A stretch of 64,000 nucleotides of DNA. Source: Phyllobates terribilis (lineage: Eukaryota). This document shows positions 4,299 to 64,000 of this stretch, piece after piece. The notes under the pieces are model-generated. The model was not told the DNA's origin and did not search any database. It worked only from the letters and a program-made list of their open reading frames with translations. Both the position numbers and the translations under genes were made by a program. Numbering within the stretch: the first letter of the stretch is position 1; each line of letters opens with the position of its first letter. The stretch lies in contig NW_027362762.1 in assembly GCF_046119375.1 (NCBI RefSeq), positions 776,116,001-776,180,000 on the forward strand. The letters are read 5' to 3'.

Positions 4299-4300
4299 TA

Positions 4301-4938: not shown

Positions 4939-4959
4939 AATAGATTGCGTATTCCATGT

Positions 4960-5600: not shown

Positions 5601-5639
5601 CATGGCAATAAACAACATGTGGCTGGACAGTACTGCAGG

Positions 5640-34165: not shown

Positions 34166-36228
34166 CTACAGGTGGTGTAGCTTGCTTAACAGCTGGGTTA
34201 ATCCGCTGACTAGCAGACACTGCTACTAGGCCCAAAGTATTGCTTGGGCTAGATGCAGTTAAAAATTTGTAATTAGATACTCTCGTTGGATGCTGAGAAA
34301 GCATTCCATAGAGTCTTCTGGCACGCCATATATTATTCTCTTATAAAGCTTGGGGTAGGGGACCCTTTTATAGCCAAAATCATGGCCCTGTATCATAATC
34401 CGTCAGCTAGGCTGAAGATAAATGGAACATTATCATCACCTTTCATAATCACCAATGGGACAAGGCAGGGATGTCCTCTGTCCCCTCTCTTATACATCCT
34501 AGTGATGGAGCACCTGCTCTCATCAATTCATGATAACCCCAATATTAGGGGGATTGAGGTGGGAGGCACCGAGTACAAGTGCTCTGCATTTGCTGATGAT
34601 GTCCTAGTATATGTCACTCAACCACATATATCCATCCCTGCTGTTATGGCTGAAATAGATCACTTTGGTACATGGTCAAATTTTAAAATCAATGCAGCGA
34701 AGTCTGAGGCCCTCGATGTCTCCCTCCCCAAATCCATAAAGGATTCCATCCAGTCCAACTTTCCCTTTGCCTGGCCCTCACAAGGTATCAAATACTTAGG
34801 AATTCGTATTCATAGAGACCTCTCCTGTCTATTTTATCTTAATTTTGGGCCTTTTATTGAACAACTCCATAGAGATTTTACGTCTTGGACGGTGAAGGAT
34901 TTTTCCTGGTTCGGCAGAATAAATATACTAAAAATGAAAGTCCTACCTGAACTCTTATACCTCTTCCAAACCATTCCCGTGGTAATTCCCTTAAATTTTT
35001 GGAAAAGACTACGCCGTAGCTTTTGCAGATTTATCTGGGCAAGTGGGCGTCCACGCATTCGGGGGAAGTTCTGATCAGACACAAACAAAAGGGGGGCCTT
35101 AGCCTTCCGGATTGTAGAAGATATTACATGGCAGCAGTACACGCTTGAATCCTGGACTTCTTCCATCATTCAGAGGGGAAATTGTGGGTCAAAATAGCTC
35201 AATCCATTTGTCCTAAAGCTCTTACCACTCTCTCGTGGTGCGCCCATTTAATTGTCCCTTCTCTTGGCCTCATGTCATATACTACCTATGCCACTGCTTT
35301 GGCTTTGAGATTAGAGATGAGCGTTGTTCGACTCGAACTGTTCGCCAATCTCAAATTCGAGCTGTTTTGGGCGGTGTTCGAGCCGTTCGGCGAACACGAA
35401 CGATTTGAGAAAAATTCGGCTGTTCGAGGTTATGTTCGATAACTGTTCGTGCACCAAAATCATAACTGGATTTTTTCTCAGTAATGATGAAAATTAATGT
35501 TAATACGCAGTTTGAGTGTACAGCGGGGTGGGGGGAGGGGCAGGGGATGGATCTCTGCAGGAATAATGAAGATCTCCATTTTTTTTTCTCTTTCCCGCAT
35601 TTACAGTGGGGAGGTGCAATCTGTCAGCCTATCCGCAGCGCACACACGAAGCGAAGTGCTTTTTTTCACACAAGCAAGGGCATGTGTCATTGGCAGTGTA
35701 TGTCACATGTCCTTGCCCTATAAGACCAAGCCATTTTCCCCATCGCCACCATTTTCTCACTGCTGCAGCTACGTGTTAGACGGCACCGCTGTTGCTGTGT
35801 GCGCTATACCTTGTTAATTTCAAGCCAATTTTCGCACAAATCTACAGATAGCTTGGGAGTAGGGAATAGTTGTGATTGCAGTCCTTTTAAGGACTAGGTT
35901 ACAGCATTTCCTACGACTTTTATCAGGCAGGTCTGTGCTCTTAAATAGATAGATTGTGGGAGTAAAGACTAATTGTAATTGCAGTCCTTTTCAGGACTAG
36001 GTTACATCAGTTCCTATCAGTTTTTGCCAGGCAGGTCTGTGCCAGTGCTGTGCAAATTTTTTTCACAGCATTTGGCTGAATCTAGCAAAGCTAATCCTTT
36101 TTGGCCTATTGCAGAGTGTGTTAGTCAGTGGAGTAGCCTATCTGTGTTGCAAGATATACCACCTGTGTATAGAATACCAATTTTTTTACTGCACCTAGTG
36201 AAGTAAAATCTTTTGGGCATAGTATCAT

Positions 36229-38716
36229 TCTATTAGTCCATCTATACTGACCTCCATCAGGTTGCAAATTGAATATAATTTTTTTCTGCATCTAGCTCTG
36301 AAAAAATATTTGGCCTTCTAGCAGTGTGTGGGACTTTCTCTATTAGTCCATCTATACTGACCTCCATCAGGTTGCAAATTAAAAATAATTTTTTGTCTGC
36401 ATCTAGCTCTGAAAAAATATTTGGCCTTCTAGCAGTGTGTGGGACTTTCTCTATTAGTCCATCTATACTGACCTCCATCAGGTTGCAAACTGAATATAAT
36501 TTTTTTCTGCATCTAGCTCTGAAAAAATATTTGGCCTGCTAGCAGTGTGTGGGACTTTCTCTATTAGTCCATCTATACTGACCTCCATCAGGTTGCAAAT
36601 TAAAAATAATTTTTATCTGCATCTAGCTCTGAAAAAATATTTGGCCTTCTAGCAGTATATGGGACTTTCTCTATTAGTCCATCTATACTGACCTCCATCA
36701 GGTTGCAAATTAAAAATAATTTTTTGTCTGCATCTAGCTCTGAAAAAATATTTGGCCTTCTAGCAGTGTGTGGGACTTTCTCTATTAGTCCATCTATACT
36801 GACCTCCATCAGGTTGCAAATTAAAAATAATTTTTTGTCTGCATCTAGCTCTGAAAAAATATTTGGCCTTCTAGCAGTGTGTGGGACTTTCTCTATTAGT
36901 CCATCTATACTGACCTCCATCAGGCTGCAAATTAAAAATAATTTTTATCTGCATCTACCTCTGAAAAAATATTTGGCCTTCTAGCTGTGTGTGGGACTTG
37001 TTCTATTAGTCCATCTATACTGACCTTCATCAGGTTGCAAACTGAATATAATATTTTTCTGCATCTAGCTCTGAAAAAATATTTGGCCTTCTAGCAGTGT
37101 GTGGGACTTTCTCTATTAGTCCATCTATACTGACCTCCATCAGGTTGCAAATTAAAAATAATTTATATCTGCATCTAGATCTGAAAAAAAATTTGGCCTT
37201 CTAGCAGTGTGTGGGACTTTCTCTATTAGTCCATCTATACTGACCTCCATCAGGTTGCAAATTAAAAATAATTTTTTGTCTGCATCTAGCTCTGAAAAAA
37301 TATTTGGCCTTCTAGCAGTGTGTGGGACTTTCTCTATTAGTCCATCTATACTGACCTCCATCAGGTTGCAAACTGAATATATATTTTTTCTGCATCTACC
37401 TCTGAAAAAATATTGGGCTTCTAGCTGTGTGTGGGACTTGTTCTATTAATCCATCTATACAGACCTCCATCAGGTTGCAAACTGAATATAATTTTTTCTG
37501 CATCTACCTCTGAAAAAATATTTGGCCTTCTAGCAGTGTGTGGGACTTGTTCTATTAGTCCATCTATACTGACCTCCATCAGGTTGCAAACTGAATATAA
37601 TTTTTTTCTGCATGTAGTTCTGAAAAAATATTTTTGCCTTCTAGCAGTGTGTGGGACTTTCTCTATTAGTCCATCTATACTGACCTCCATCAGGTTGCAA
37701 ATTAAAAATATTTTTTTGTCTGCATCTAGCTCTGAAAAAATATTTGGCCTTCTAGCAGTGTGTGGGACTTTCTCTATTAGTCCATCTATACTGACCTCCA
37801 TCAGGCTGCAAATTAAAAATAATTTTTATCTTCATCTACCTCTGAAAAAATATTTGGTCTTCTAGTTGTGTGTGGGACTTGTTCTATTAGTCCATCTATA
37901 CTGACCTCCATCAGGTTGCAAACTGAATATAATTTGTTTCTGCATCTGGCTCTGAAAAAATATTTGGCCTTCTAGCAGTGTGTGGGACTTTCTCTATTAG
38001 TCCATCTATACTGACCTCCATCAGGTTGCAAATTAAAAATAATTTATATCTGCATCTAGCTCTGAAAAAATATTTGGCCTTCTAGCAGTGTGTGGGACTT
38101 TCTCTATTAGTCCATCTATACTGACCTCCATCAGGTTGCAAATTAAAAATAATTTTTTGTCTGCATCTAGCTCTGAAAAAATATTTGGCCTTCTAGCAGT
38201 GTGTGGGACTTTCTCTATTAGTCCATCTATACTGACCTCCATCAGGTTGCAAACTGAATATATTGTTTTTCTGCATCTACCTCTGAAAAAATATTGGGCT
38301 TCTAGCTTTGTGTTGGACTTGTTCTATTAATCCATCTATACAGACCTCCATCAGGTTGCAAACTGAATATAATTTTTTTCTGCATCTACCTCTGAAAAAA
38401 TATTGGGCTTCTAGCTGTGTTTGGGACTTGTTCTATTAATCCATCTATACAGACCTCCATCAGGTTGCAAATTGAATATAATTTTTTCTGCATCTACCTC
38501 TGAAAAAATATTTGGGCTTCTAGCTGTGTGTGGGACTTGTTCTATTAGTCCATCTATACTGACCTCCATCAGGTCGCAAACTGAATACAATTTTTTTCTG
38601 CATCTACCTCTGAAAAAATATTTGGGCTTCTAGCTGTGTGTGGGACTTGTTCTATTAATCCATCTATACTGACCTCCATCAGGTTGCAAATTGAATATAA
38701 TTTTTTTCTGCATCTA
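36229..38716 (+). repeat. 110-111-bp tandem array, ~23 units, with an 881-bp higher-order duplication
   Basis: tctattagtccatctatactgacctccatcaggttgcaaa recurs every ~110-111 bp. Rare variant gctgca at ~36923 and ~37804. Confidence 0.97.
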
Positions 38717-38814
38717 ACCCAGCCAATAGTTTTGGCCACTCAGCTCTGCTCGGTTCCCATCCATTGTTTTTTTGTGCAAACAACTTCAGAGTTGTGAATT
38801 AGTTAACCACCAAA

Positions 38815-41800
38815 ATGAGTGGAAAAAGGCCTGCTGCTGGTGGAAAGGGGAATAGGCGTGTTGGGAAGGGGAAAAAAGGTTGTGTCCGTGGGGTAGGTGT
38901 TAAAGCAACAGTAACATCTGCAGAAGAAAGACCATCTTCCAGCCAAACTAAAATGTCTACTTCTTTTAGATATAAGATCCCTTTCTTACGGCCACGCCAA
39001 TCGCTACAAATTCCAGATGAGGCACAAAAACAGCAGGTGCTTCAACGGATATCAAGTGCTCCTTTAAGTGGGCTCTCCTCCACATCAACTTCAACATCAC
39101 AAATACTCCAGTCCTCAAAGGTGTCACCCCAATCGCACTTGCTTCCTCACAGCTCCCAAATCTCCAGCTGCCCGTCTGAGTATGAGGTTGAACAGATGGT
39201 TGAGTCTGCAGAGCTGTTTACTCATACTATAGCCTGGGAATCAGAGGTCGACTCCAGCGCTTCTGCGAATCCAGACGAGGAAATGATCTGCACTGATGCC
39301 CAGAATCTTTATGAGTCGGATCCAGGACCAGACGCAGAAGGTTCTGACCATAATGTAGACCCTCATTCCCAAACTGTAACTCCTGTTGGTGGAGACAATG
39401 AGGAAGACGATGATGAGACTCAAATACCTGATTGGAGCGACAACTTTAGTTTTTTGTCAGGGCAGGAACAGGTTGGCTCTGAGGACGACGAGTGTGATAA
39501 CGCACAGGGTGATGATGATGAGGTTGGAGATTCCACTTACTGTCAACCCACAGTCAGCCAAGAGATGAGGTCAGCAGAGGAGGTGGAGGAAGATGCTAGT
39601 GACGACGAGGTCAGGTTGCGCCTTCCTGGACAGAGACGTAGTACTGGAAGCACGTCAACAACTGCATCCTCAAACACAACTCTGCCTCTCACCACAAGTC
39701 GTGGTGGCTCTTCAGGTCGCATGGGTGCTAAGCCTTGCATAGCCTGGGCATTTTTTCAGATCGATAAAGATGACCCAACTCGTGTTATCTGTAACATTTG
39801 TCAGCAAAAGCTAAGTAGAGGCCAAAAAATACATAGTTTGAGTACTTCATGCATGAACCGGCACATGGACATGAAGCATAAGTTGCAGTGGGAAGCTCAG
39901 CGTGCTACAATGTGGCCTAGCCGGCCGGGCCAACCACCGTCTGCCATATCTTGTGCATCCGCGGCCTCTTCATCCTCTGTGACTGGGGGGACAGCAGTCA
40001 CACCTGTTTTGGGGCGCAGACCTGCCACCTCTTTACCCGCAACAGCCAGCGTGATTGGCAGGTCATCATTTTCTTTGGAGGTGGTAACACCAGCTGGTGT
40101 TGAGCGCTGTCCGACATCGATAGCACCACCTTTGGATCAAGGCAACCTAACATGTCCGCCTGCATCTTCCTCACAGACCGGCAGTTTGCCGGGGACACCC
40201 TTATCAACCCCGTCTAAGCACAATAGCCAGCCCTCGGTCCCTGAGATGTGGACAAGTAAAAGACCATTTCCTCCTAGCCATGAGAAAGCTAAGAGGTTGA
40301 ATTTCACCATATGCAAGCTCTTGGCTACAGAAATGCTGCCTTTCCGCCTGGTGGACACAGAGGATTTTCGAGACCTTATGTCCGTCGCAGTGCCCCAGTA
40401 CCAGATGCCCAGTCGGCACTACTTCTCAAAGAAAGGTGTGCCTGCGCTCCACCAGCATGTCGCACACAACATCACCGCTTCTTTGAGAAACTCTGTGTGT
40501 GACAGGGTGCATTTCACCACAGACACTTGGACGAGTAGGCATGGACAGGGGCGTTACATGTCGCTGACTGGGCACTGGGTAACTATGGTGACAGCAGGAC
40601 AAGGGGCTGCTGTCCAAGTCTTGCCGTCCCCACGAGTTGTGCGTCAATCCTCTTTATGTCAAAGTTCCTCCACTGCTTCTGCCTCCTCAACCTCCTCTCG
40701 GTCTTCCACCTGCACCCAAAGCCTGTCTGGTCATGCCACAAGCTTTCTAACTGCGCAGTAGGGATCCTGCACACCTCCTTACTATGCCGGCAGTAGGGCT
40801 CAACGTCATCAGGCGGTTTTTACTTTGAAATGTCTGGGAAATGTGAGTCACACAGCTGAGGAGTTGTGGTCAGCTCTGGAGAACCAATTTCATGAATGGT
40901 TGTCTCCACTGGACCTGAAACCAGGGAAGGCCGTGTGCGACAATGCTGCAAACCTGGGTGCGGCCCTTCGCCGGGGCAATGTCACACACGTGCCTTGTAT
41001 GGCTCACGTGTTTAACCTGGTTGTCCAGCAATTTTTAGCCCACTATCCCAGACTAGATGGCCTTCTGCAGAGGGCACGGTCGCTGTGTGCTCACTTCCGC
41101 CGTTCGCATCCCGCAGCTCAGCGACTTACATCTCTACAGAAGTCGTTGGGCCTGCCACTTCACCGGCTAAAATGCGATGTGCCTACCCGGTGGAATTCAA
41201 CTCTGCACATGTTGCAGCGACTGTGGCAGCACCGACAAGCCCTGGTGCAATATGTTCTGACGTATAGCCTGGGAAAACGAGATCCAGAGGTGGGGCAAAT
41301 CACGCTGGAGGAGTGGTCTCAGATCAGGGACCTATGCACCCTTCTGCACAGTTTTGAAATGGCGACGAAGATGTTTAGTGCTGACGATGCCATTATCAGC
41401 ATGACTATTCCGGTGATTTACATGCTGGAGCACATGTTAAACAGAATTTGGAGTCAGGTGGTGGCACAAGAGGAGGTGGAGGAAGTAGAGGAGGATGAGT
41501 TGTATGCGGAAGGGCTAACATCTGCAAGGTCCAGACGGTCGGCAGCACGAAGGCGGCAGGCATGTGAGGGTGGGGGAGATGGTTTTACCAGGGCGCATGG
41601 TAGCAGCCAAACTAGTGAGGAAGGTGCAGGAGCCCAGGAAGAAGTGGAGGATGAACTGATGGAAGACTCATCAGATGAGGGAGACCTTGATCACATTTCT
41701 GTTGTGCGAGGTTGGGGGGAGAGGACAGAGGAAGGAAGCATGATTGTTACCTCGCCACCAACACAACAGGGTCTTGGTGCTCCTGGATGCGCAACACACA

Positions 41801-42507
41801 TGAGTGCCTTCTTGCTGCACTACCTGCAACATGACCCTCGAATTGTGAGAATTAGAAATAATCCTGACTACTGGATTGCCACACTGTTAGATCCCCGGTA
41901 CAAAAGTAAATTTGCAGACATTATTCCTGCCATAGAAAGGGATGCAAGCATGCAGGAGTATCAGCAGAGACTGTTGCAGAATCTTACATGTGCTTTTCCA
42001 CAAAACACCAGTGGTGCACGTAGTGAATCTCACAGTTCCAACTTGCCAACCGTGGGACCGTCAATTGTTCAGCACTCAAACCGTAACAGAACCACAGTAT
42101 CTGCTGGTAACATCAATTTTGCGGAATCATTTCACCACTTTTTTAGCCCATCCTTTGCAAGGCCACAGGAGACAAGAAGTCTGACACATAGTCAACGCCT
42201 AGAGACGATGGTACAGGAGTATCTCCAAGTAAACATTGAAGCCATGACTGTGTCACTGGACCCTTGCTCTTTTTGGGCTTCCAATCTGGATAAATGGCTG
42301 GAGCTCGCCACTTACGCCTTGGAGATCTTGTCATGCCCCGCAGCCAGCGTTCTGTCTGAACGTGTGTTCAGCGCTGCTGGTGGTGTGCTGACAGATAAGC
42401 GCACGCGGCTCTCCACTGATAATGTAGACAGACTCACGTTCATAAAGATGAACAAATCATGGATCCGAAACGACTTTTCTACCCCTGTGTCATCCTGGGG
42501 AGAGTAA
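38815..42507 (+). pseudogene. hAT transposase, ~1230 codons, one in-frame TAG (40759-40761)
   Basis: ORFs 38815 and 40825 are in the same frame. BED finger (WAFF..CNIC..RHMDMKH), FTTDTW, CDNAANL, CMAH, TRWNS, CPAASVLSERVFS. Confidence 0.95.
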
Positions 42508-42519
42508 AAGCTTGATGAT

Positions 42520-42830
42520 TGGTTAAAATCACCCTACCAACCGTTTTAAGCTTTCAAATTACTAATCATGTTTATCTGTATCTTGGCTGGAAAATAATTT
42601 GGGCTTTGTAGCAGTGTGCAGCACTGATTTTATTAGGCCATCTATAATAAGCTCCACCAGATTTAAAATTACTAATCATGTTTATCTGTATCTTGACTGG
42701 AAAATAATTTGGGCTTTGTAGCAGTGTGCAGCACTGATCCTATTAGGCCATCTATACTAAGCTCCACCAGATTTAAAATTATAATAATTTTTAGCTGCAT
42801 CTAGCCCGGAAAATAATTTTGGGGCTCCGA
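42520..42830 (+). repeat. ~3 subterminal units related to the 111-bp array
   Basis: tttgtagcagtgtgcagcactgat..tattaggccatctata..aagctccaccagattt aligns with the array unit. Confidence 0.75.
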
Positions 42831-42944
42831 GATGCGCAAGACACATAAGTGCATTCTTGCTGCACTACCTGCAACATGACCCTCATATTGTCAGAATTCG
42901 AAGTAATCATGACTACTGGGTTGCCACACTCTTAGATCCCCCAA

Positions 42945-44311
42945 ACTTTTCGATCATCCTTTTCATTTTAATAAAGACCAAAAAAATGGTCATTTTTGAA
43001 ATTATAAGCTTCAGCAGGTTATTAGAAACTGAAATCAAACAGTTTTCAACTCAAAACTTTATTCTAGGTGATGTTACATTTTCACATAGGACCTCTTGTT
43101 CGAAAGGAGCTTCTGAACTCTCTCGTCCATTGAATTTGTCAGGTTTTGGATGGTTTCTGCTTCAATTGTTTTGCATGAGGACAGAATACCCTCCCCGAGC
43201 TGTTGCTTAGATGTGAACTGCCTCCCGCCATCATAGACACTCCTTTTGATGATGCTCCAGAGGTTCTGAATGAGGTAGAGGTCAGGGGAGCATGGGGGTC
43301 ACACCATAAGTTTGTCCCCTTTTATGCCCATATCAGCCAGAGATGCAGATGTTTTATGTGCAGCATGAGATGGTGCATTATCATGCAAAAAAATTATCTT
43401 GCTGTGAAATACACGGTTCTTCTTCTTGAACCATGGCAGGAAGTGCTGTTTTAGAAAATCCACATACATTATGGAGTTCATCTTTAGCGCCTTCAGGGAT
43501 CCTAAAGGGGCCGACAATCTCTCTCCCCATGATTCCAGCCCAAAACATTACTCCACCTCCTCCTTGTTGGCGCTGTAGCTGTGTTTGCGTGGGGTGTCCA
43601 TCAACCAGCCATCCTCCACTCCATCCATCTGGACCATCGAGCGCTGCACGGCACTCATCCGTGAACAAAACAGTTTTGAAATCAGTCTTAATGTTATGTT
43701 TGGCCAACTGGAGCCGTTTCTGCTTGTGTGAAGTGGATAGAGGAGGTCGACAGGATGGCGTATGCACAGCTGCAAACCTCTGAAGGACCCTGCATCTTGT
43801 TGTTCGGGGGACGTTGGAGGCACCAGCAGCTTCAAAAACTTGTCTGCTGCTATGACAAGGCTTTTTTGCCGCTGCTCTTTTAACCTGACGTAATTGCCTG
43901 TAGGAAAGAGTCCTCAATTTGCCCTTATCAGCACGCACACGTGTGTACTGTGAATTAGCTACATACTTCTTGATTGCCAAGACACTTCATCCTGATCATC
44001 GCACAATGTTGATTGTAGTCATGCCTTGACCTAAACACTCCACAATTTGTTGCTTCGAAGCAGCCGACACATCCTTTTTCTTTCCCATTTTGGCAGAAAA
44101 TGTAGGCTGCTTAATAATGTGAGACAGTCTTCCTAAGTTGTCTTGCCTTTCATTGGACACACCTGCCAAACTATTTAGCACAGGTGTCTGCAATTGCTTA
44201 CAGTGATATAAAGAGCCCTGACACACATCACCATCAATGAGTTTAACTGACAAACAAATTCTTCCCTTATCACTCCTAAACACTTTTTGCATAATAATTT
44301 GGAACACAGTG
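42945..44311 (-). mobile_element. Dead Tc1 fragment carried as cargo (transposase remnant 43074-44088)
   Basis: TIR CACTGTGTTCCAAATTATTATGC next to TA. MGKKKDVS..., FTDECR, HDNAPSH. Stops and a frameshift. Confidence 0.88.
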
Positions 44312-44386
44312 TACATGTGCTTTTCCACAAAACACCAGTGGTTCACGTAGTGAATCTTACAGTTCTAACTTGCCAACCGTGGTCTG

Positions 44387-46206
44387 TATGGAGTTGTTCA
44401 ATAAAGGGCACAGAATTAAGATAACATAGATGGGAGAGGTCTCTATGAATAGGAATTCCTAAGTATTTGATACCCTGTGAGGGCCAGGCAAAGGGAAAGT
44501 TGGACTGGATGGAATCCTATATGGATTTGGGGAGGGTGACATCGAGGGCCTCAGACTTCGCTGCATTGATTTTAAAATTTGACCATGTAACAAAGTGATC
44601 TATTTCAGCCATAACAGCATGGATGGATATATGTGATTGAGTGATATATACTAGGACATCATCAGCAAATAGAGAGCACTTGTACTCGGTGCCTCCCACC
44701 TCAATCCACCTAATATTGGGGTTATGGCGAATTGATGAGAGCAGGTGATCCGTCACTAGAATGTATAAGAGAGGGGACAGAGGACATCCCTGCCTTGTCC
44801 CATTGGTGATTGTGAAAGGTGATGAAAATGTTCTGATGCGCCCCTTGGGCCTTGGGACACCCGGAGCCGGACCCTTTTTGGTGGATGCTGGTGGTTGTAG
44901 TCTTCGTGGCGGCGACCCGGTTCCGTGGCTCAGAGTGGTCAAACCAGTGGCGGAACTATTTATGTGGTTTTGATGTTTAAATGTCCGACTATGCCACCCG
45001 TGGATTGCGGTCAGAGTGAACCGCCGCTGCAGGGCAGACCGCTGAGGCTGGTGTTGTGGGTGCAGCAGAGTGTAGCATAACTCCCCACGGGAGGAGTATA
45101 GCCTCAGGGCAGTGTATGCGGAGGATGGGGGTGATGGTGCAGGGCAGCAGCAGTAACGACACGGAGTCAGTGATGCAGTCCAGGGCCTTTACTCACAGTT
45201 CTTATTATCCAGACCACGTCTGCAGGTAACGGCTGCCCACGTCGTACTGTGCTCACCAGGTGAGAGGCTCAGACAACTCCCAGATAACTTTGGAGTGCTT
45301 CACAGGACCCCCTTTGTGTGTCCTTTGTCTGGCCTTTCTTACCAACCCTTCTGTCCGGCTGCCTCGGGCCTCCTCTTGGTAAACTTGGCACCAGTTTCCC
45401 TGACCCTATGTGGTGCCTTCCTAGCGGGTGTAGCGAGGGGCTGCGCCACATAAAATGTCACAGCCTCCGGTTTCTAGCTGAGGGTCGTTTCCTGCCTCCA
45501 CTAGTTTCGGGGACCGGTCTCCCCCTTTGGCCTGACCCCTCCACGCAGGTGGATTCGGGCGTGCGGTGGCGACTCGCCCGTCCGCACCCCTGGGATCCCT
45601 TCATTCCTCGTTCCTGGAGCCTTCTCCGCTTCTCTTCCTTCCTTCTCCCTCTTCCAGGCCTGGGCCTCTGTTACTAGGCCCGCCTCCGGAGCAGAGCTCA
45701 TGCAGAGCCCCTGCTCCCTGCCACTTCTGCTCAGACTTCTCTGCACTGAACTAAGATGGTGCCCACCTTTTATACTCCCTTCTCAATGCACCCAGGAACT
45801 GCTTCCTCCCTGCTCCTGCACTACAGGCTTCTCCTTCCTCAGTGTTCCCTCCCCCCACTCCAGCCAGGGACAGGGACTGTCATGCCCATCTCAGAGGCAT
45901 ATTGGTCGCCCTGCCCCACGGCAATGTGCTGTAATGCATGCAGGTGTCGGGTCCTGATCCACACTCCATCCTTACCTGAGAGTGAGATATCACACCTCTG
46001 GGTGAGGTGCAATACCTCTGTAGCAACCGAGCCCTCAGGGTGCTACAGTTCCATTTATCTTCAGCCTAGGTGACGTATTGTGATACAGGGCCGTGATTTT
46101 GGCTATAAAAGGGTCCCCTAGACCCCTACCCCAAGCTTTTTAAGAGAATCATATATGGCGTGCCAGGAGACTCTATGGAATGCTTTCTCAGCATCCAACG
46201 AGAGTA
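44387..46206 (-). mobile_element. L1 RT fragment (cargo) split by a solo LTR
   Basis: Homologous to 34278-34870, with the same 5' junction ttgtaattaga|tactctcgttggatgctgag. Confidence 0.88.
44834..46047 (-). repeat. Solo LTR (~1.21 kb)
   Basis: TG...CA termini and a 4-bp TSD GTTC (44830-44833 and 46048-46051). Confidence 0.85.
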
Positions 46207-46317
46207 TCTAATTACAAATTTTTAACTGCATCTAGCCCAGGAAATACTTTGTGCCTAGTAGCAGTGTCTGCTAGTCAGCGGATTATCCCGGCTGTTAAGC
46301 AAGCTACACCACCTGTA

Positions 46318-46585
46318 GTTTGGACACTTAATTTTTTCAAAGGAAATGCTTCGGGACCACGGGATACTCAGTGAAGAGCATCAGGAGGCACCCCAAGGCA
46401 TAGGGGCTGGGACTGGCAGTAGGATGCCTTGCGGTGGACAGCCGAGCTCGATCCTTATAAAAGCTTTTTAACTGCAGCAGCTTTAGTGGACGCTACTGGA
46501 GCTGGAATTACGCGGCTGCTGGCATGAGACTTGCCCTCCAATAGATCCTTGTAAATGGATTTAAAGTGTATTCATTCAAATTAGA
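46318..46585 (-). rRNA. 18S rRNA-derived fragment, copy 2
   Basis: Reverse complement of the 33897-34165 fragment, inside the hAT right end. Confidence 0.88.
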
Positions 46586-49109
46586 GAGACAATTTAAATT
46601 AAAAAGCTTAGACCTGCCTCCACCACAGGGAGGCTCGCTCGACCCACCAGCGGACAGGCACCAGTATTGGGAGAGGGGGGCTGGCCGTCAGGGTTCACCG
46701 CGGCTCTGGCACAAACCCGGCGACACGGAGGTGGCACGGGTAGGAGTGGACTGAACGTGTCGGCTTCTCACTTTTTGGATTTTAGAAGGGCATGACATGC
46801 CTATATCTGTTTCTCCCCCTCCTTTTACTCCTCCACCTCTTTTCTTTTCGCATGACTATATGTACTTGTCACTTTTCCATGTGTTAGTTGTGTCTTCTGA
46901 GCAGTTTGTCAGCTTTTGGACACCTTTGAAGGTGTTTTCTATGTGTTTCTATGTGTTTTTGTTTGCCTGCCATTGGTTTTAACGGTGTTCGAAGGTGTTC
47001 GACGAACAGTTCGACGAACAGTTTGGCGAACACACGGGTGTTCGACGAACCGAACCGAACTCGAACACTACGGGGGTGGCTCAACACTATTTGAGATCCC
47101 AAAAAAAAGCTTATCCTCAATCGACCCCCAGGGCCCCTTGCTCCCGATTTCAGATAATCCAGATTTCCCACCAGGACTATCTGCAAATAGATTTCTCGGT
47201 TCAAATAAATCCCATCCGATATTATTTTCTCATGTCATCTCCAATACTTCGCTGCTCCCCCTCAATGACTTGTTACAGGGAAGAGCCACTTCCCCGAAGG
47301 CTAATTTTGAAAATAGCCAGTTACAACACTTCTATTCAACTGTGAAGAAGCGCACACATCTTCATAGAGATCTCACAAACTTTGAAAAATTGAGCCTATC
47401 ATTGTCACCCCCTACACACTCCATCTCCCTACTGTATAATCTCCTCATTGCCCAGCTAACTGACAATAGGCCAGGATTCTGCGGTGCATGGGAAAGGGAA
47501 CTGGGGAAGTACTTCTCTGACTCACAATGGGATAAATGTTTCTTCCTAACACATAAAACCTCAATAGGGTCCAAGGCTCAGGAAACCTCCTTCAAAATTA
47601 TCTCTATAAGGTACCGGGTACCAGCAGTCCTTCATAGATGGTATCCAGTGGTCTCAGATAGATGTTGGAGATGTGGGGAGGGGGAAGGGACAATGTCACA
47701 CATATGGTGGGCATGCCCTATAATAAATGCATTTTGGGCAAAGGTGGTTCCCATGATTGACAAAATAACTGGTTTGACTATCCCTAATACGCCAGAAGCC
47801 CTCCTTTTATCAATGTTACCAATAAGTAAACGTAGTTATAAAAGGTCATCAATAGGCTACCTAATACAGGCGTCTAAGAATGTCATTCCACGACACTGGA
47901 AAAGCAGAGACCCACCCACTGTGGAGGAATGGTTTGCGGAGATCTCCCTCCTTAATAGGATGGAACGAACATCTGATTGTCATCTCACCGGCTGATGTTG
48001 ATAGATACTGTGTGATTTGGAGGGATTGGATTGATTTGAAAAACTCTGACGCCTACCATCTAGCCCCCAACTAAAGTTATCCGTGATGTAGGCACAACAA
48101 TGATCATAATCGCACTCTATTGATTGGTGGTCTGCCGTGGTCCTCTCCCTCTCTCTCTATCTTTCATATGGAAAAATACATGCTTGATCTGGATATTGAT
48201 GGAAAACCCTCCCTATACCCCCCAATGTACTGTCGTTATGCATAGATTTATAGTTATACTACCCCTTTTACTATGTATATTGTATTTTCTTGTACTTTTT
48301 CAACAAAAAAATAAAAAAAAACTTGAATTTGAAAAAAAAAATTGTAATTAGACCTACAGGCGGTGGCTACTCCGTTGACTAGCAGACACTGAAGCTTTGG
48401 AGCAGGCCTCTGATTCCCAGGCTATAGTATGAGTAAACAGCTCTTCAGACTCAACCATCTGTGTTACCCCAAGCCATAGTGTATGTAGTTTCTTACGGTT
48501 AAAAGGGAGGGGAGAGACCCGACCCACCTTGAATTGACGATGGCAACGTCATGTAAAACACAGCAAGGGGACTCCAAAAAGAGTCTCCATTTTTTCCCAA
48601 AATTGTGGCACAGACACCACTTAAGTGGCATCAATTGTCCCAGAGTTGCTTAAAATGGTTGGTGAGGTGATTTTCCAAAATCCTCAAGCTTTTAGTCTCC
48701 CCAGAATGACACAGGTGGGGCAAATGGTGGTTGTCCCGGCCCGCTAGGCCGCATTGTAGCATAGTGAGCTTCACACTGCAACTTATGCTTCATATCCATG
48801 GGACGGTTCATGCATGAAGTACTCAAACTATTGATTTTTTGTCTTCTACTTAGCTTTTGGTGACAAATGTTACAGATAACACGAGTTGGGTCATCCTTAT
48901 CGATCTGAAAAAATGCACAGGCTATGCAAGGTTTAGAGCCCATGCGACTCTGCTACTAGCAATACTATCAGATGATTGGCTGGGTTAGATGCAGAGCGTC
49001 TGGGTTTAGTTGGGGGTCCCCACAGTCTGCCTAGGCTAGATGCAGTTAAAAATTATTATTAGATACACAGGCGGTGCAGCTTGCTTCGCAGCTGGGCTAA
49101 TACGCCCAA

Positions 49110-52468: not shown

Positions 52469-52733
52469 CTAATTTGAATGAATACACTTAAAATCCATTT
52501 ACAAGGATCTATTGGAGGGCAAGTCTCATGCCAGCAGCCGCGTAATTCCAGCTCCAGTAGCGTCCACTAAAGCTGCTGCAGTTAAAAAGCTTTTATAAGG
52601 ATCGAGCTCGGCTGTCCACCGCAAGGCATCCTACTGCCAGTCCCAGCCTCTATGCCTTGGGGTGCCTCCTGATGCTCTTCACTGAGTATCCCGTGGTCCC
52701 GAAGCATTTCCTTTGAAAAAATGAAGTGTCCAA
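52469..52733 (+). rRNA. 18S rRNA-derived fragment, copy 3
   Basis: ggatctattggagggcaagtctcatgccagcagccgcgtaattccagctcc... Confidence 0.88.
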
Positions 52734-52846
52734 ACTACAGGTGGTGTAGCTTGCTTAACAGCCGGGATAATCCGCTGACTAGCAGACACTGCTACTAGGC
52801 ACAAAGTATTTCCTGGGCTAGATGCAGTTAAAAATTTGTAATTAGA

Positions 52847-54667: not shown

Positions 54668-54742
54668 CAGACCACGGTTGGCAAGTTAGAACTGTAAGAT
54701 TCACTACGTGAACCACTGGTGTTTTGTGGAAAAGCACATGTA

Positions 54743-56108: not shown

Positions 56109-56507
56109 AAAGTTTGGGGGATCTAAGAGTGTGGCAACCCAGTAGTCATGATTACTTCGAATTCTGACAATATGAGGGTCATGCTGCAGGTAGTGCAGCA
56201 AGAAGGCACTTATGTGTCTTGCGCATCTCGGAGCCCCAAAATTATTTTCCGGGCTAGATGCAGCTAAAAATTATTTTTAATTTTAAATCTGGTGGAGCTT
56301 ATTATAGATGGCCTAATAGGATCAGTGCTGCACGCTGCTACAAAGCCCAAATTATTTTCCAGTCAAGATACAGATAAACATGATTAGTAATTTGAAAGCT
56401 TAAAACGGTTGGTAGGGTGATTTTAAACAATCATCAAGCTTTTACTCTCCCCAGGATGACACAGGGGTAGAAAAGTCGTTTCGGATCCATGATTTGTTCA
56501 TCTTTAT

Positions 56508-59500
56508 TAGTGTTGAGCCACCCCCGTAGTGTTCGGGTTCGGTTCGGTTCGTCGAACATCGGGATGTTCGATGAACTGTTCGTCGAACTGTTCGTCGAAC
56601 ACCTTAGAACACCGTCGAACACCGTTAAAACCAATGGCAGGCAAACAAAAACACATAGAAACACATAGAAAACACCTTCAAAGGTGTCCAAAAGCTGACA
56701 AACTGCTCAGAAGACGCTTTCTTTAAAAAAGCCGGCCGGCAATTCAGCAGCGGCATACACCGGTACCCGACAATTTAGACAAGAAGGAATAGAGCCTCAC
56801 ACATAGATTAGATAGATAGAAACATGTCAGTCACATATATATGAAGTACAGTGACAGTGTTGCTTACTGTACTTGTCATTTAGTGTAAAGGATTTATTAA
56901 AAAATATAATAGTGTTTTCATGCACTGTCTCTTTAAAAAAGCCGGCCGGCAATTCAGCATCTGTACCCGACAATTTATAACAGACAGAATAGAGCTTCAC
57001 ACATAGATTAGATAGATAGAAACATGTCAGTCACATATATATGAAGTACAGTGACAATATTGCTTACTGTACTTGTCATTTAGTGTAAAGGATTTATTAA
57101 AAAAAATAATAGTGTTTTCATGCACCGTCTCTTTAAAAAAGCCGGCCGGCAATTCAGCATCTGTACCCGACAATTTATAACAGACAGAATAGAGCTTCAC
57201 ACATAGATTAGATAGATAGAAACATGTCAGTCACATATATATGAAGTACAGTGATAGTGTTGGTTACTGTACTTGTCATTTAGTATTAAAATAAAGGATT
57301 TATTATTAAAAAAAATTGGCGTGGGGTTCCCCTTAATTTTAGTCTCTAGCGGAGGTTAAGCAGACAGCTGGGGCAGATGTTTGAAGCCTGGGAAGGGGGT
57401 AATACCCACGGAGCTTCCCAGGCTACTAATATGAGCCCCCAGCTGAATACATAGCCTTTACTAGCTATTAAAATGGGGGACCCCCCCAAAAAAATGACGT
57501 GGGGTCCCCCCTAATTTAATAGCTAGCAAAGGCTAGGCAGACAGCTGGGGGCTGATATTAATAGCCCAGGAAGGGAGCCATGAATATTGGCCCCCTCCCA
57601 GGCTAGAAACACCAGCCGTCAGCCGCCCCAGAAATGGCGCATTCATAGGATGCGCCAATTCTGGCACTTAGCCTCGCTCTTCCACGCTGCCCTGTAGCGG
57701 TGGCAGGGGGTAATAGGGCTGGGGTTGATGTCAGCTTATAATGCCAGCTGACATCAAGCCCAGGTTAGTAATGGAGAGGCGTCTATAAGACACCCCCATT
57801 ACTAACCCCATAGTCAAAGTTAAAAGAAAACACAAACACCCAGAATAAAGTCCTTTAATTGAAATAAAGACACAATCCTTTATTGTTCTAAATTAAACCA
57901 TACTTACCATCACGCCCATTCCAGCTGAAGCCAACGATCTCCTGCAATAAAAGAAAAATAATAAAGCAACATCATCCTTACCTTTCCATGGTTCCCACGA
58001 CAGCTTCAACTCTGCTACATCGAGATGACAGGCTGGACCGCAGCAGAACGCTGCCATCCAGCCTGTCATCCCGCAGACACTGAGAAGCGCAGGCATGCTT
58101 GCGCTCTGCAGTGTCTGGCTGTGACGGCATAAAGATGAGACGAGTTCATGTCCAATGAACTCGGCGCACCTCATGCACGTCACTGACAGCGTGGGAAAAT
58201 TCTCACGCTGAAGCGCTGAGTGCAGGAGAATTCTCCCACGCTGTCAATGACGTGCATAAGGTGAGCTCATGTCGAATGAACTCAGCTCACCTCCTGCACA
58301 TCACTGACAGCGTGGGAGAATTCTCCTGCACTCAGCGCTTCAGCGTGAGAATTCTCCCACGCTGAAGCGCTGAGTGCAGGAGAATTTTCCCACGCTGTCA
58401 GTGACGTGCATAAGGTGAGCTCATGTCCAATGAACTCAGCTCACCTCCTGCACGTCACTGACAGCGTGGGAGAATTCTCCTGCACTCAGCGCTTCAGTGT
58501 GAGAATTCTCCCACGCTGAAGCTCTGAGTGCAGGAGAATTTTCCCACGCTGTCAGTGACGTGCATGAGGTGAGCCGAGTTCATTGGACATTAACTCGGCT
58601 CATCTGGATGCCCTCACAGAGAGACACTGTGGAGCGCAAGCAAGCCTGCGCTTCTCAGTGTCTGCGGGATGACAGGCTGGATGGCAGCGTTCTGCTGCGG
58701 TCCAGCCTGTCATCTCGATGTAGCAGAGCTGAAGCTGTCATGGGAACCATGGAAAGGTAAGGATGATGTTGCTTTATTATTTTTCTTTTATTTCAGGAGA
58801 TCGTTGGCTTCAGCTGGAATGGGCGTGACGGTAAGTATGGTTTAATTTAGAACAATAAAGAATTGTGTGTTTATTTCAATTAAAGGACTTTTTTCTGGGT
58901 GTTGTGTTTTTTTTAAATACTTTACTAGAAATTCATGGTGGTCATGTCTAATATTGGCGTGACCCCATGAATTTTGGGCTTAGGGCCAGCTGATAATGCC
59001 ATGCTGGCCCTAACCCCTTTATTACCCAGTGAGCCACCGCATCAGGGCCCTGGATGAGTTGGGTACAGCGCCAGAAGATGGCGCTTCTATGAACGCGCCA
59101 TTTTCCGGGGTGGCTGCGGACTGCAATTTGCAGCGGGGGTGGCCCAGAAAGCTTGGGCCTCCCTGCGCTGCGGATTCCAGCCCCCAGCTGCCTAGTTGTA
59201 CCTGGCTGGACACAAAAACAGGGCGAAGCCCCACGTCAATTTTCTTTAAATTATTTCATGAAATAATTAAGAAAAAAAGGGCTTCCCTATATTGTTGTGT
59301 CCGGCCAGGTACAAATAGTTAGCTGGTGGTTGGGGGCAGCCCGTTCCTGCCTGCTGCACCTGACTGGACACAAATATAGTGCGAAGCCCCACGTCAATTT
59401 TTTTTAAATTATTTCATGAATTTCCTGAAATAATTTAAAAAAATTGAAGTGGGGCTTCGCACTATATTTGTGTCCAGCCAGGTACAGCAGGCAGGAATGG

Positions 59501-62376
59501 GCTGCCCCCAACCACCAGCTGCCTATTTGTACCTGGCCGGACACAACAATATAGGGAAGGCCTTTTTTTCTTAATTATTTCATGAATTTCATGAAATAAT
59601 TAAAAAAAATTGAAGTGGGGCTTCGCACTATATTTGTGTCCAGCCAGGTACAGCAGGCAGGAACGGGCTGCCCCCAACCACCAGCTGCCTATTTGTACCT
59701 GGCCGGACACAACAATATAGGGAAGGCCTTTTTTTCTTAATTATTTCATGAAATAATTTAAAGAAAATTGACGTGGGGCTTCGCCCTGTTTTTGTGTCCA
59801 GCCAGGTACAACTAGGCAGCTGGTGGCTGGAATCTGCAGCGCAGGGAGGCCCAAGCTTTCTGGGCCCCCCCCGCTGCAAATTGCAGTCCGCAGCCACCCC
59901 GGAAAATGGCGCGTTCATAGAAGCGCCATCTTCTGGCGCTGTACCCAACTCATCCAGGGCCCTGGTGCGGTGGCTCACTGGGTAATAAAGGGGTTAGGGC
60001 CAGCTTGGTATTATCAGCTGGCCCCAAGCCCAAAATTCATGGGGTCACGCCAGTATTAGACATGACCGCCATGAATTTCTAGTAAAGTATTTAAAAAAAA
60101 CACAACACCCAGGAAAAAGTCCTTTAATTGAAATAAACACACAATTCTTTATTGTTCTAAATTAAACCATACTTACCATCACGCCCATTCCAGCTGAAGC
60201 CAACGATCTCCTGCAATAAAAGAAAAATAATAAAGCAACCTCATCCTTACCTTTCCATGGTTCCCACGACAGCTTCAGCTCTGCTACATCGAGATGACAG
60301 GCTGGACCGCAGCAGAACGCTGCCATCCAGCCTGTCATCCCGCAGACACTGAGAAGCGCAGGCATGCTTGCGCTCCTCAGTGTCTCTCTGTGACGGCATC
60401 CAGATGAGCCGAGTTCATGTCCAATGAACTCAGCTCACCTCATGCACGTCACTGACAGCGTGGGAAAATTCTCACGCTGAAGTGCTGAGTGCAGGAGAAT
60501 TCTCCCACGCTGTCAGTGACGTGCATGAGGTGAGCTCATGTCCAATGAACTCAGCTCACCTCATGCACCTCACTGACAGCGTGGGAAAATTCTCCTGCAC
60601 TCAGCGCTTCAGCGTGAGAATTCTCCCACGCTGTAAGTGACGTGCATGAGGTGAGCCGAGTTCATTGGACATGACCTCGGCTCATCTTTATGCCATCACA
60701 GAGAGACAATGTGGAGCGCAAGCATGCCTGCGCTTCTCAGTGTCTGCGGGATGACAGGCTGGATGGCGGCGTTCTGCTGCGGTCCAGCCTGTCATCTCGA
60801 TGTAGCAGAGCTGAAGCTGTCGTGGGAACCATGGAAAGGTAAGGATGAGGTTGCTTTATTATTTTATTTTTATTACAGGAGATCGTTGGCTTCAGCTGGA
60901 ATGGGCGTGATGGTAAGTATAGTTTAATTTAGAACAATAAAGAATTGTGTCTTTATTTCAATTAAAGGACTTTATTCTGGGTGTTTGTGTTTTTTTTAAC
61001 TTTGACTATGGGGTTAGTAATGGGGGTGTCTTATAGACGCCTCTCCATTACTAACCTGGGCTTGATGTCAGCTGGCATTATAAGCTGACATCAACCCCAG
61101 CCCTATTACCCCCTGCCACCGCACCAGGGCAGCGTGGAAGAGCGAGGCTAAGTGCCAGAATTGGCGCATCCTATGAATGCGCCATTTCTGGGGCGGCTGA
61201 CGGCTGGTGTTTCTAGCCTGGGAGGGAGCCAATATTCATGGCTCCCTTCCTGGGCTATTAATATCAGCCCCCAGCTGTCTGCCTAGCCTTTGCTAGCTAT
61301 TAAATTAGGGGGGACCCCACGTCATTTTTTTGGGGGGTCCCCCATTTTAATAGCTAGTAAAGGCTATGTATTCAGCTGGGGGCTGATATTAGTAGCCTGG
61401 GAAGCTCCGTGGGTATTACCCCCTTCCCAGGCTTCAAACATCTGCCCCAGCTGTCTGCTTAACCTCCGCTAGAGCCTAAAATTAAGGGGAACCCCACGCC
61501 AATTTTTTTAATAATAAATCCTTTATTTTAATACTAAATGACAAGTACAGTAACCAACACTATCACTGTACTTCATATATATGTGACTGACATGTTTCTA
61601 TCTATCTAATCTATGTGTGAAGCTCTATTCTTTCTGTTATAAATTGTCGGGTACAGATGCTGAATTGCCGGCCGGCTTTCTTAAAGAGACGGTGCATGAA
61701 AACACTATTATTTTTTTTGATAAATCCTTTACACTAAATGACAAGTACAGTAATCAACACTGTCACTGTACTTCATATATATGTGACTGACATGTTTCTA
61801 TCTATCTAATCTATGTGTGATGCTCTATTCTTTCTATTATAAATTGTCGGGTACAGATGCTGAATTGCCGGCCGGCTTTTTTAAAGAGACGGTGCATGAA
61901 AACACTATTATTTTTTTTGATAAATCCTTTACGCTAAATGACAAGTACAGTAAGCAGCACTTTCACTGTACTTCGTATATATGTGGCTGACATGTTTATA
62001 TCTATCTAATCTATGTGTGAAGCTCTATTCTTTCGGTTCTAAATTGTCGGGTACCGGTGTATGCCGCTGCTGAATTGCCGGCTTTTCATGTTTATCTGTG
62101 AGCACTGTTCCCATCGATTTGGGCAATCACTGTAATGCCACAACCACCATGGCTGTGGCATTACAGTGAGTGGCAGACAATCCCTGCATGATTGGTGCTC
62201 TAAATAGCGCCAGACATGCAGGACACGCTTTTGGTGCACGAACAGTTATCGAACATAACCTCGAACAGCCGAATTTTTTGCAAATCGTTCGGGTTCGTCG
62301 AACAACTCGAACACCGCCCAAAACAGATCGAATTTGAGATTGGCGAACAGTTCTAGTCGAACACCGCTCATCTCTA
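56508..62376 (-). mobile_element. Non-autonomous hAT (5869 bp) inserted into the transposase 3' end
   Basis: TAGTGTTGAGCC at 56508 and CGCTCATCTCTA ending at 62376. Perfect TSD ATCTTTAT at 56500-56507 and 62377-62384. Confidence 0.95.
56731..62082. repeat. ~5.4-kb near-perfect palindrome centred at ~59421, with nested inverted and tandem repeats
   Basis: Arm ends gccggcaattcagcagcggcatacaccggtaccc and gggtaccggtgtatgccgctgctgaattgccggc. Apex tttttaaattatttca / tgaaataatttaaaaa. ~200-210-bp tandem units x3 at each outer end. Confidence 0.93.
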
Positions 62377-62384
62377 ATCTTTAT

Positions 62385-64000
62385 GAACGTGAGTCTGTCT
62401 ACATTATCAGTGGAGAGCCGCGTGCGCTTATCTGTCAGCACACCACCAGCAGCGCTGAACGCACGTTCAGACAGAACGCTGGCTGCGGGGCATGACAAGA
62501 TCTCCAAGGCGTAAGTGGCTAGCTCCGGCCATTTATCCAGATTGGAAGCCCAAAAATAGCAAGGGTCCAGTGACACAGTCGTGGCTTCAATGTTTACTTG
62601 GAGATACTCCTGTACCATCGTCTCTAGGCGTTGACTATGTGTCAGACTTCTTGTCTCCTGTGGCCTTGCAAAGGATGGGCTAAAAAAGTGGTGAAATGAT
62701 TCCGCAAAATTTATGTTACCACCAGATACTGTGGTTCTGTTACGGTTTGAGTGCTGAACACTTGACGGTCCCACGGTTGGCAAGTTGGAACTGTGAGATT
62801 CACTACGTGCACCACTGGTATTTTGTGGAAAAGCACATGTAAGATTCTGCAACAGTCTCTGCTGATACTCCTGCATGCGTGCATCCCTTTCTATGGCAGG
62901 AATTATTTCTGCAAATTTACTTTTGTACCGGGGATCTAACAGTGTGGCAACCCAGTAGTCAGGATTATTTCTAATTCTCACAATTCGAGGGTCATGTTGC
63001 AGGTAGTGCAGCAAGAAGGCACTCATGTGTGTTGCGCATCCAGGAGCACCAAGTCCCTGTTGTGTTGGTGGCGAGGTAACAATCATGCTTCCTTCCTCTG
63101 TCCTCTCCCCCCAACCTCGCACAACAGAAATGTGATCAAGGTCTCCCTCATCTGATGAGTCTTCCATCAGTTCGTCCTCCACTTCTTCCTGGGCTCCTGC
63201 ACCTTCCTCACTAGTTTGGCTGCTACCATGCGCCCTGGTAAAACCATCTCCCCCACCCTCACATGCCTGCCGCCTTGGTGCTGCCGACCGTCTGGACCTT
63301 GCAGATGTTAGCCCTTCCGCATACAACTCCTCCTCCTCTACTTCCTCCACCTCCTCTTGTGCCACCACCTGACTCCGAATTCTGTTTAACATGTGCTCCA
63401 GCATGTAAATCACCGGAATAGTCATGCTGATAATGGCATCGTCAGCACTAAACATCTTCGTCGCCATTTCAAAACTGTGCAGAAGGGTGCATAGGTCCCT
63501 GATCTGAGACCACTCCTCCAGCGTGATTTGCCCCACCTCTGAATCTCGTTGGCCCAGGCTATACGTCAGAACGTATTGCACCAGGGCTTGTCGGTGCTGC
63601 CACAGTCGCTGCAACATGTGCAGAGTTGAATTCCACCGGGTAGGCACATCGCATTTTAGCCGGTGAAGTGGCAGGCCCAACGACTTCTGTAGAGATGTAA
63701 GTCGCTGAGCTGCGGGATGCGAACGGCGGAAGTGAGCACACAGCGACCGTGCCCTCTGCAGAAGGCCATCTAGTCTGGGATAGTGGGCTAAAAATTGCTG
63801 GACAACCAGGTTCAACACGTGAGCCATACAAGGCACGTGTGTGACATTGCCCCGGCGAAGGGCCGCACCCAGGTTTGCAGCATTGTCGCACACGGCCTTC
63901 CCTGGTTTCAGGTCCAGTGGAGACAACCATTCATGAAATTGGTTCTCCAGAGCTGACCACAACTCCTCAGCTGTGTGACTCACATTTCCCAGACATTTCA
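62385..64000 (-). CDS. hAT transposase, C-terminal half of the second copy; open in this window (last codons displaced to 56442-56507)
   Basis: ORF 63983..62127 is near-identical to ORF 40825..42507 up to RLTFIK, then reads into the inserted element. Confidence 0.85.

What the first reader, a model, noticed from the sequence alone, without database searches (positions are those of the whole stretch)
56508..62376. Non-autonomous hAT whose whole payload is a 5.4-kb palindrome of palindromes
Only ~205 bp (right) and ~145 bp (left) match the autonomous ends. The interior folds about 59421 with ~2.7-kb arms and a loop under 10 nt. Each arm is itself an inverted repeat: A - module(-) - short nested hairpins - module(+) - B, where B is a diverged reverse complement of A. 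The ~330-bp module appears four times (57850, 58560, 60120, 60650). Such palindromes are normally unstable, yet this one has a perfect TSD. It could extrude cruciforms or give long branched dsRNA, placed inside its own family's transposase gene, which suggests a self-silencing (Mu-killer-like) locus.
Basis: partly seen in the sequence, partly recalled or inferred. Interest (0 to 1): 0.8.

Follow-up and report, generated by a model that had tools for sequence, protein, structure and literature searches.

The report
Mass-copied nested-palindrome hAT transposon family

Summary
The structure is real: 8-bp TSD, empty site in a sister copy, 208/148-bp hAT ends, 2.7-kb arms 96.7% identical, four copies of a 290-bp module. 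It is not a one-off locus. Exact probes give 4,073 (junction) and 18,974 (right-end) genomic hits; 56 of 80 sampled hits are complete elements with their own TSDs, 38 with the full double palindrome. Arms group by subfamily, not by side (AU p 0.015, 0.010); the core is inverted between two subfamilies; single-palindrome forms arise by deletion; a second hAT family with other ends carries the same modules. Two putative RNA runs (one study) show A-to-G hyper-edited pieces absent from the genome, so the family makes dsRNA. The Mu-killer reading fails: the payload shares no 16-mer with the autonomous element, which has at least 53,952 copies, and 5 of 80 other copies also sit in a transposase gene, near background (2-5%). 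Verdict: a foldback-like non-autonomous hAT family; new variant of a known kind.

The parts
56500..56507 (+). left target-site duplication (8 bp)
   Evidence: single copy at the empty site in the sister element (42442-42449)
56508..56715 (+). hAT end (transposase-3' side), 11-bp imperfect TIR plus subterminal repeats; 91% to autonomous end
56720..57316 (+). T array, 3 x ~200-bp tandem units (1-7 units per side in other copies)
57317..57835 (+). module A (diverged reverse complement of B-Y-X)
57845..58135 (+). module M, copy 1
58140..58605 (.). nested short hairpin units (h), variable number
58608..58891 (-). module M, copy 2; carries RNA-only A-to-G differences at family level
58915..59245 (+). 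modules B and Y, haplotype p (alpha subfamily left)
59246..59761 (.). central X+ X- X- units with AT-rich hairpin nodes at ~59260, 59421, 59586, 59750; symmetry centre
59762..60092 (-). modules Y and B, haplotype q
60116..60399 (+). module M, copy 3
60400..60680 (.). nested short hairpin units (h)
60685..60975 (-). module M, copy 4
60985..61501 (-). module A, right arm (98.7% to left)
61502..62082 (-). T array, right arm, 3 units
62090..62228 (+). family-specific non-palindromic spacer (probe 62159-62190: 18,974 exact genomic hits)
62229..62376 (+). hAT end (transposase-5' side); 94% to autonomous end
62377..62384 (+). right target-site duplication
62127..64000 (-). 3' part of the host copy's uninterrupted 1,297-aa hAT transposase frame; its last ~84 codons are read from the inserted element
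35312..47089 (+). sister autonomous-type hAT copy (11.8 kb, own TSD; BED finger and hATC domain, one stop at 40759)

Best explanation
The element is one member (alpha subfamily) of a young, very high-copy non-autonomous hAT family with a foldback-type payload. SHOWN: it needs only ~210 and ~150 bp of ends shared with the resident autonomous hAT, moves as a unit with 8-bp TSDs, and carries T(n)-A-M-h-M'-B-Y-X|X'-Y'-B'-M-h-M'-A'-T'(n). The palindrome is inherited from a few source elements rather than rebuilt per copy; between subfamilies the arms were re-homogenised and the core was inverted once; direct-repeat deletion collapses doubles to single palindromes; the same modules ride in a second hAT family. 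Transcripts of the family fold back and are A-to-I edited (one study, contigs). INFERRED: the nested architecture, arm matching, core flip and module swaps come from template switching between inverted and direct repeats during repair of excision gaps or replication in source elements; ~3% arm mismatch and indels make the palindrome stable enough to be copied; the payload is a passenger with no role in controlling the transposase; this copy hit a transposase gene because such genes are 2-5% of the genome.
For: 4,073 and 18,974 exact probe hits, reversed controls 0; 33 of 40 and 23 of 40 fetched hits complete with own TSD, T at TSD position 2 in 35 of 41 and A at 7 in 38 of 41; quartet sites by subfamily 29, by side 2, crossed 4 outside the alpha/gamma core, and 16 of 16 crossed in that core; 'all left arms one clade' rejected, AU p 0.015 outer and 0.010 inner; core order pq 16, qp 15, rs 16, rr 2, unclear 1 of 50; L120 has a hybrid M1/M3 and L100, L110 have gamma M1+M4; second family L074, L086 with own TSDs; RNA-only differences all A>G, 3 of 23 listed sites, edited 17-mer 0 versus unedited 33,779 in the genome.
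Against: Arm-to-arm copying after insertion is rare: 385 singleton alleles against 3 rare alleles shared by both arms of one copy once L124 (sole member of its lineage, 17 shared) is set aside; chance expectation below 1 (1 of 17 and 0 of 17). The 152 versus 11 opposite-arm/third-allele count can also come from retained ancestral states or ectopic conversion. Samples are the first hits on contig C1 only and the first 40 are biased to one junction variant. 5 of 80 in transposase genes has P 0.02-0.4 depending on the background used, so a mild preference is not excluded. The repair mechanism itself was not observed. RNA evidence is from runs only guessed to be RNA, one study, other individuals, and cannot be assigned to this locus.
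Confidence: 0.8

Rival explanations
1. Hairpin trap: copies that land in transposase genes (about 5 in 80, so on the order of a thousand loci) put a 5.4-kb hairpin into the 3' end of a transposase mRNA; the RNA is edited, retained or diced, and small-RNA production spreads into the ORF and dampens the family in trans.
For: The host copy here has an uninterrupted 1,297-aa frame that reads into the element; 39 perfectly paired runs of 21 bp or more between the arms; family RNA is hyper-edited; 5 of 80 copies in transposase genes is above the lowest background (P 0.018 at 1.9%).
Against: No transposase or end sequence lies in the duplex (0 shared 16-mers), unlike Mu killer (abstract of PMC3440606); at least 53,952 autonomous copies match a 45-mer exactly; 75 of 80 copies lie elsewhere; P 0.05-0.4 with flank-based backgrounds.
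Confidence: 0.1
2. The palindrome is selected at the level of the element: folding or paired protein-binding sites bring the two ends together or shield the element, so palindromic payloads transpose better than other cargo of the same length.
For: Double palindromes are the commonest complete form (26 of 33 and 12 of 23); the youngest subfamily (0.33% from its majority sequence) has the best-matched outer arms; the modules spread to a second family.
Against: Single palindromes (7 of 23), forms with a foreign ~2-kb insert in place of part of the left arm (3 of 23) and a 2.3-kb deletion form all carry their own TSDs; the second family's arrangement is not a whole-element palindrome; the 11.8-kb non-palindromic autonomous element is more abundant.
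Confidence: 0.2
3. The fold-back is an assembly or chimeric-read artefact.
For: Long palindromes are a known source of mis-assembly (own knowledge); no raw long reads were available here.
Against: Same architecture at 38 of 80 other loci with different TSDs, with fixed left/right differences and independent tandem-unit counts (20 of 64 complete copies have equal counts on both sides); an artefactual fold-back would give identical arms.
Confidence: 0.01

Closest known systems
Foldback-type elements (Drosophila FB, Tetris, Galileo two-TIR copies; PMC4079207, PMC4168063, PMC3573991, passages read)
   Same: Non-coding, long inverted arms with an outer domain of ~200-bp tandem repeats and an inner domain; many rearranged forms; inter-subfamily chimeras; conversion proposed for long inverted repeats.
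   Different: There the long repeats are the terminal repeats and most are assigned to Mutator or P; here the arms are internal to short asymmetric hAT ends, have almost no middle domain, are themselves palindromes, and number ~10^4 copies rather than 3-200.
Non-autonomous hAT elements (Ds-like) of an Ac-type family
   Same: 8-bp TSD, short imperfect TIR, subterminal regions shared with an autonomous BED/hATC transposase element related to Hermes.
   Different: Interior is not a deletion derivative of the autonomous element; it is 5.4 kb of foreign nested palindrome shared with a second hAT family.
Xenopus laevis 1723 element (recalled; three literature searches found no paper on it)
   Same: As recalled: 6-10 kb, thousands of copies, 8-bp TSD, short imperfect TIR, ~180-200-bp repeats inverted near the ends, variable tandem region, transcribed.
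   Different: As recalled, not described as a whole-interior nested palindrome; sequence relationship not tested.
FEDoR of Rana temporaria (PMC12054243, section 21 read)
   Same: Dispersed ~3.5-kb non-coding amphibian element with TSDs, internal tandem repeats, inverted repeat pairs and a short hAT-like flank.
   Different: Inverted repeats only 91 and 49 bp, 43 copies described, no kilobase palindrome, no autonomous partner identified.
Mu killer of maize (PMC3440606, abstract read)
   Same: Kilobase fold-back associated with a DNA transposon family and able to give a long hairpin RNA by read-through.
   Different: Mu killer's hairpin is an inverted duplication of the transposase gene and TIR; this hairpin has none of either and is itself a mobile high-copy family.

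Membership tests
non-autonomous hAT | 8-bp TSD, different at each insertion | tested here: met
   window plus 33 of 40 and 23 of 40 fetched loci; two of these have one mismatch
non-autonomous hAT | short TIR and subterminal ends shared with an autonomous hAT | tested here: met
   208 bp at 91% and 148 bp at 94%; TIR 9 of 11; partner has zf-BED, hATC and Hermes similarity
non-autonomous hAT | no coding capacity | tested here: met
   longest stop-free frame wholly inside is 121 aa; no Rfam match
non-autonomous hAT | mobilised in trans by that transposase | not testable with these tools
   inferred from shared ends and young age (0.3-0.9% from subfamily majority)
hAT Ac family | TSD consensus nTnnnnAn (criterion recalled) | tested here: met
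   T at 2 in 35 of 41, A at 7 in 38 of 41
foldback elements | long modular inverted repeats with tandem outer domain and inner domain | tested here: met
   T array plus A-M-h-M'-B-Y-X; definition from PMC4079207 passages
foldback elements | the long inverted repeats are terminal | tested here: not met
   arms begin 227 and 294 bp inside unlike ends
Mu-killer-like locus | hairpin contains transposase and TIR sequence | tested here: not met
   0 shared 16-mers between payload and autonomous element; BLAST hits only at the ends
Mu-killer-like locus | read-through hairpin transcript from this locus | tested here: inconclusive
   family-level edited RNA pieces; not assignable to this copy
Mu-killer-like locus | siRNAs silence the family in trans | not testable with these tools
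   no small-RNA data; at least 53,952 autonomous copies
MITE | short (hundreds of bp; criterion recalled) | tested here: not met
   median 5,706 bp, range 2,256-6,908 in 64 complete copies

The most novel reading that the evidence does not exclude
The nested palindrome is a transferable cargo that evolves as its own entity: it is re-symmetrised and inverted in source elements, is exchanged between hAT families with different ends, is favoured because it aids its own mobilisation, and at about 1% of the genome is a main source of long, ADAR-edited dsRNA; the roughly one thousand copies inside transposase genes act together as cis hairpin traps on the parent family.
Probability: 0.12. Interest if true: 0.75.

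Novelty: new variant of a known kind. Interest (0 to 1): 0.45.

Why it matters
Near-perfect kilobase palindromes are usually treated as rare and short-lived. Here one has been copied on the order of 10^4 times, in dated subfamilies, with built-in left/right markers. That makes rates of arm-to-arm conversion, core inversion and collapse in a vertebrate-sized genome directly measurable at thousands of independent sites, adds an hAT case to the convergent foldback structure, and flags a large likely source of edited dsRNA and of assembly difficulty. It does not reveal a new silencing system.

Tried and rejected
DNA similarity search of the own genome with a 261-bp payload piece returned nothing because very common words are skipped; exact patterns were used instead. 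Rfam: 0 matches. Splice-site-like motifs in M (seen by eye): no joint at them in either putative RNA run (contigs, so absence proves nothing). No holder is on record as RNA in the run list. Ongoing flip-flop at equilibrium was rejected: each subfamily keeps one core order and no sr form was seen among 18 beta copies. Per-copy regeneration of the palindrome was rejected: within-copy arm distance (0.024 outer, 0.037 inner) is no smaller than same-side distance between copies (0.020-0.025, 0.028-0.032). A loose count that gave G at 58639 in genomic copies came from the opposite arm of a small hairpin; anchored, 253 of 253 read AA. Literature searches for a description of such a family found none; the library lacks most subscription journals, and Repbase/Dfam could not be searched, so the family may already be catalogued. 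Earlier findings of this scan: none.
Full report
OBSERVATION. The element spans 56508-62376 with the same 8-mer on both sides; a 98%-identical sister of the host element in the same window (35312-47089, opposite strand) has that 8-mer once, so this is a true insertion. Its first 208 bp and last 148 bp match the sister's ends at 91% and 94%. The sister encodes a BED-finger/hATC transposase with one stop. The host copy has an uninterrupted 1,297-aa frame, similar to Hermes (E 5e-19), with the hAT catalytic motifs visible by eye (motifs recalled); the insertion replaces its last ~19 codons with ~84 read from the element. The interior is T3-A-M-h-M'-B-Y-X | X'-X'-Y'-B'-M-h-M'-A'-T'3; the arms are 96.7% identical, longest perfect run 129 bp. 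The centre carries one extra 165-bp unit, so the short loop at 59421 is one of two registers.

IT IS A LARGE FAMILY. The genome is 10.6 Gb; the organism was not determined. A 49-nt probe across the left-end/payload junction has 4,073 exact hits, a 32-nt probe in the private right-end spacer 18,974, a 50-nt probe in M 33,184; reversed controls 0. I fetched the first 40 junction hits on contig C1: 33 are complete with their own TSD, 26 of them full doubles. I fetched the first 40 right-end hits not already held: 35 carry payload modules, 23 are complete (12 doubles, 7 single palindromes, 3 with a foreign ~2-kb insert, 1 deletion form). Complete copies hold on average 1.5 exact M probes. Together this gives about 15,000-20,000 copies, near 1% of the genome (estimate). 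Copies differ from their subfamily majority by 0.3-0.9%, so amplification is recent. Tandem-unit numbers vary independently on the two sides (equal in 20 of 64), and arms have fixed differences, which excludes an assembly fold-back. Words of the payload occur in runs under three organism labels; one run of a second organism gave 336 contigs on a 661-bp piece.

HOW THE PALINDROME EVOLVES. Three subfamilies were defined from B haplotypes (13 alpha including this copy, 15 beta, 11 gamma; the other fetched copies were partial, deleted or of rarer lineages and were left out). If the palindrome had formed once and then only diverged, left arms would cluster together. They do not: informative sites group arms by subfamily 29 times, by side 2 times, crossed 4 times, leaving aside the alpha/gamma core, where all 16 sites are crossed. 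A tree with all left arms together is rejected (AU p 0.015 outer, 0.010 inner); both gamma outer arms form one branch (support 98) and both beta inner arms one branch (95). The crossed core means M'-B-X-B'-M has been inverted relative to the ends between alpha and gamma; of 50 two-arm copies 16 are pq, 15 qp, 16 rs, 2 rr, 1 unclear. L124 has lineage-specific alleles in all four M copies. Against frequent conversion after insertion: 385 singleton alleles versus 3 rare alleles shared by both arms of one copy when L124 is set aside, and within-copy arm distance is not below between-copy distance. So homogenisation and inversion are episodic events fixed in source elements. Single palindromes derive from doubles at least in gamma: L100 and L110 keep M1 and M4, L120 has an M1/M3 hybrid. 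Of 15 loci picked from the M list, 9 are this family, 5 have the ends of a second hAT family (L074 and L086 complete, 7.9 kb, own TSDs) carrying the same modules at 89-98% in another order, and 1 is a fragment. Template switching among these repeats during gap repair or replication is my inferred cause; it was not observed. Conversion and chimerism were proposed for the long repeats of Galileo (PMC3573991, passages).

THE SILENCING IDEA. Mu killer holds an inverted duplication of the transposase gene and TIR (PMC3440606, abstract). This payload shares no 16-mer with the autonomous element. A 45-nt transposase probe has 53,952 exact hits, so transposase genes make up at least 1.9% of the genome, 2.5-5.2% by flank sampling. 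Five of 80 other copies (L046, L048, L049, L067, L090) lie in a transposase gene; P = 0.018, 0.05 and 0.40 for the three backgrounds. A mild preference is possible, a special locus is not. What survives is a cis effect: a transcript of this host copy would end in a 5.4-kb hairpin.

RNA. Four runs of assembled contigs were laid on 58600-59260: X11 and X12 (guessed RNA, one study), X4 (DNA), X9 (second organism, kind unknown). Of 23 listed differences, 20 are also common in X4; the other 3 are all A>G (58638, 58639, 59200), at 28-36% in X11 and 7-10% in X12 against at most 0.03% in X4 and 0 in X9. In the fetched genomic copies these places read A in 253 of 253 (58638-9) and 317 of 317 (59200). 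A 17-nt loose end before 58644 (3 contigs in X11; its last 10 nt in 2 contigs of X12) equals the reverse complement of window 60363-60379 with all five A read as G; that edited 17-mer occurs 0 times in the genome, the unedited one 33,779 times. An 8-nt loose end before 58796 in both runs fits the same rule for two A (genomic G 0 of 310 and 0 of 257). This is the signature of ADAR hyper-editing of dsRNA (own knowledge). Limits: one study, different individuals from the DNA run, 223 loose ends not shown, no RNA-only T>C rows, and no assignment to this copy or even to this family rather than the second one.

COMPARISON. By ends and TSD it is a non-autonomous hAT. It works like a foldback element (tandem outer domain, inner domain, many rearranged forms; PMC4079207 and PMC4168063, passages) but fails the terminal-repeat criterion. 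FEDoR of Rana temporaria (PMC12054243, section 21) and the Xenopus 1723 element (recalled; not found) are amphibian elements of related build without a kilobase nested palindrome. Searches for a description of such a family found none, but repeat databases and most subscription papers were out of reach; no supplements were read.

VERDICT. Observation confirmed; Mu-killer interpretation not supported; dsRNA formation supported at family level. New variant of a known kind, interest 0.45.

Noticed in passing
window 33383-64000 and L031-L032: Three copies of the autonomous-type hAT are nested: the copy starting at 33383 is interrupted by 35312-47089 and later by 51964 onward (end in L031, matching TSD); a further end in L032 carries the TSD of the 33383 copy. 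The second and third copies are inverted, 96-98% identical and 4.9 kb apart, so they, not the payload, form an inverted duplication that includes transposase sequence.
   Followed up: partly
window 42659-47089 and 51964-56400: The autonomous-type element carries captured cargo downstream of its transposase: a Tc1-like transposase fragment and a reverse-transcriptase fragment (Pfam), and a 110-bp tandem array of ~2.5 kb upstream (36229-38737).
   Followed up: no
L041 and L042 (C1 ~33.73-33.74 Mb): Two near-identical copies with different TSDs sit tail to tail about 160 bp apart, making a ~13.5-kb higher-order palindrome; looks like a local hop.
   Followed up: no
L074, L081, L085, L086, L087: Second hAT family with different subterminal ends carries the same T, A, M, h, B, Y, X modules in a 7.9-kb arrangement with two B-X-B' cores; its autonomous partner was not sought.
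   Followed up: partly
L075, L076, L114, L121, L122, L125: A lineage in which part of the left arm is replaced by a shared ~1.7-2.1-kb non-coding insert made of its own palindrome and a ~67-bp tandem array, unrelated to the modules.
   Followed up: partly
window 58669-58714: A ~48-nt stem-loop in M has contig depth 10-100 times the rest of the stretch in both putative RNA runs but flat depth in the DNA run; loose ends there match the second family's right end by eye, so another carrier may be the source. Depth of contigs is not a measure of expression.
   Followed up: no
window 58750-58840 and 57630-57660, 59085-59105: M holds donor-acceptor-donor splice-site-like motifs around a 34-nt segment; A and B hold paired YY1-like motifs (both by eye, motifs recalled).
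   Followed up: partly
L037, L051: Copies of the family inserted into other copies of the same family.
   Followed up: no
window 2-2747, 15009-17100, 7343-8104: Ty3/gypsy-type gag-pol remains, an L1-like endonuclease/RT in two frames, and another BED-finger fragment.
   Followed up: no
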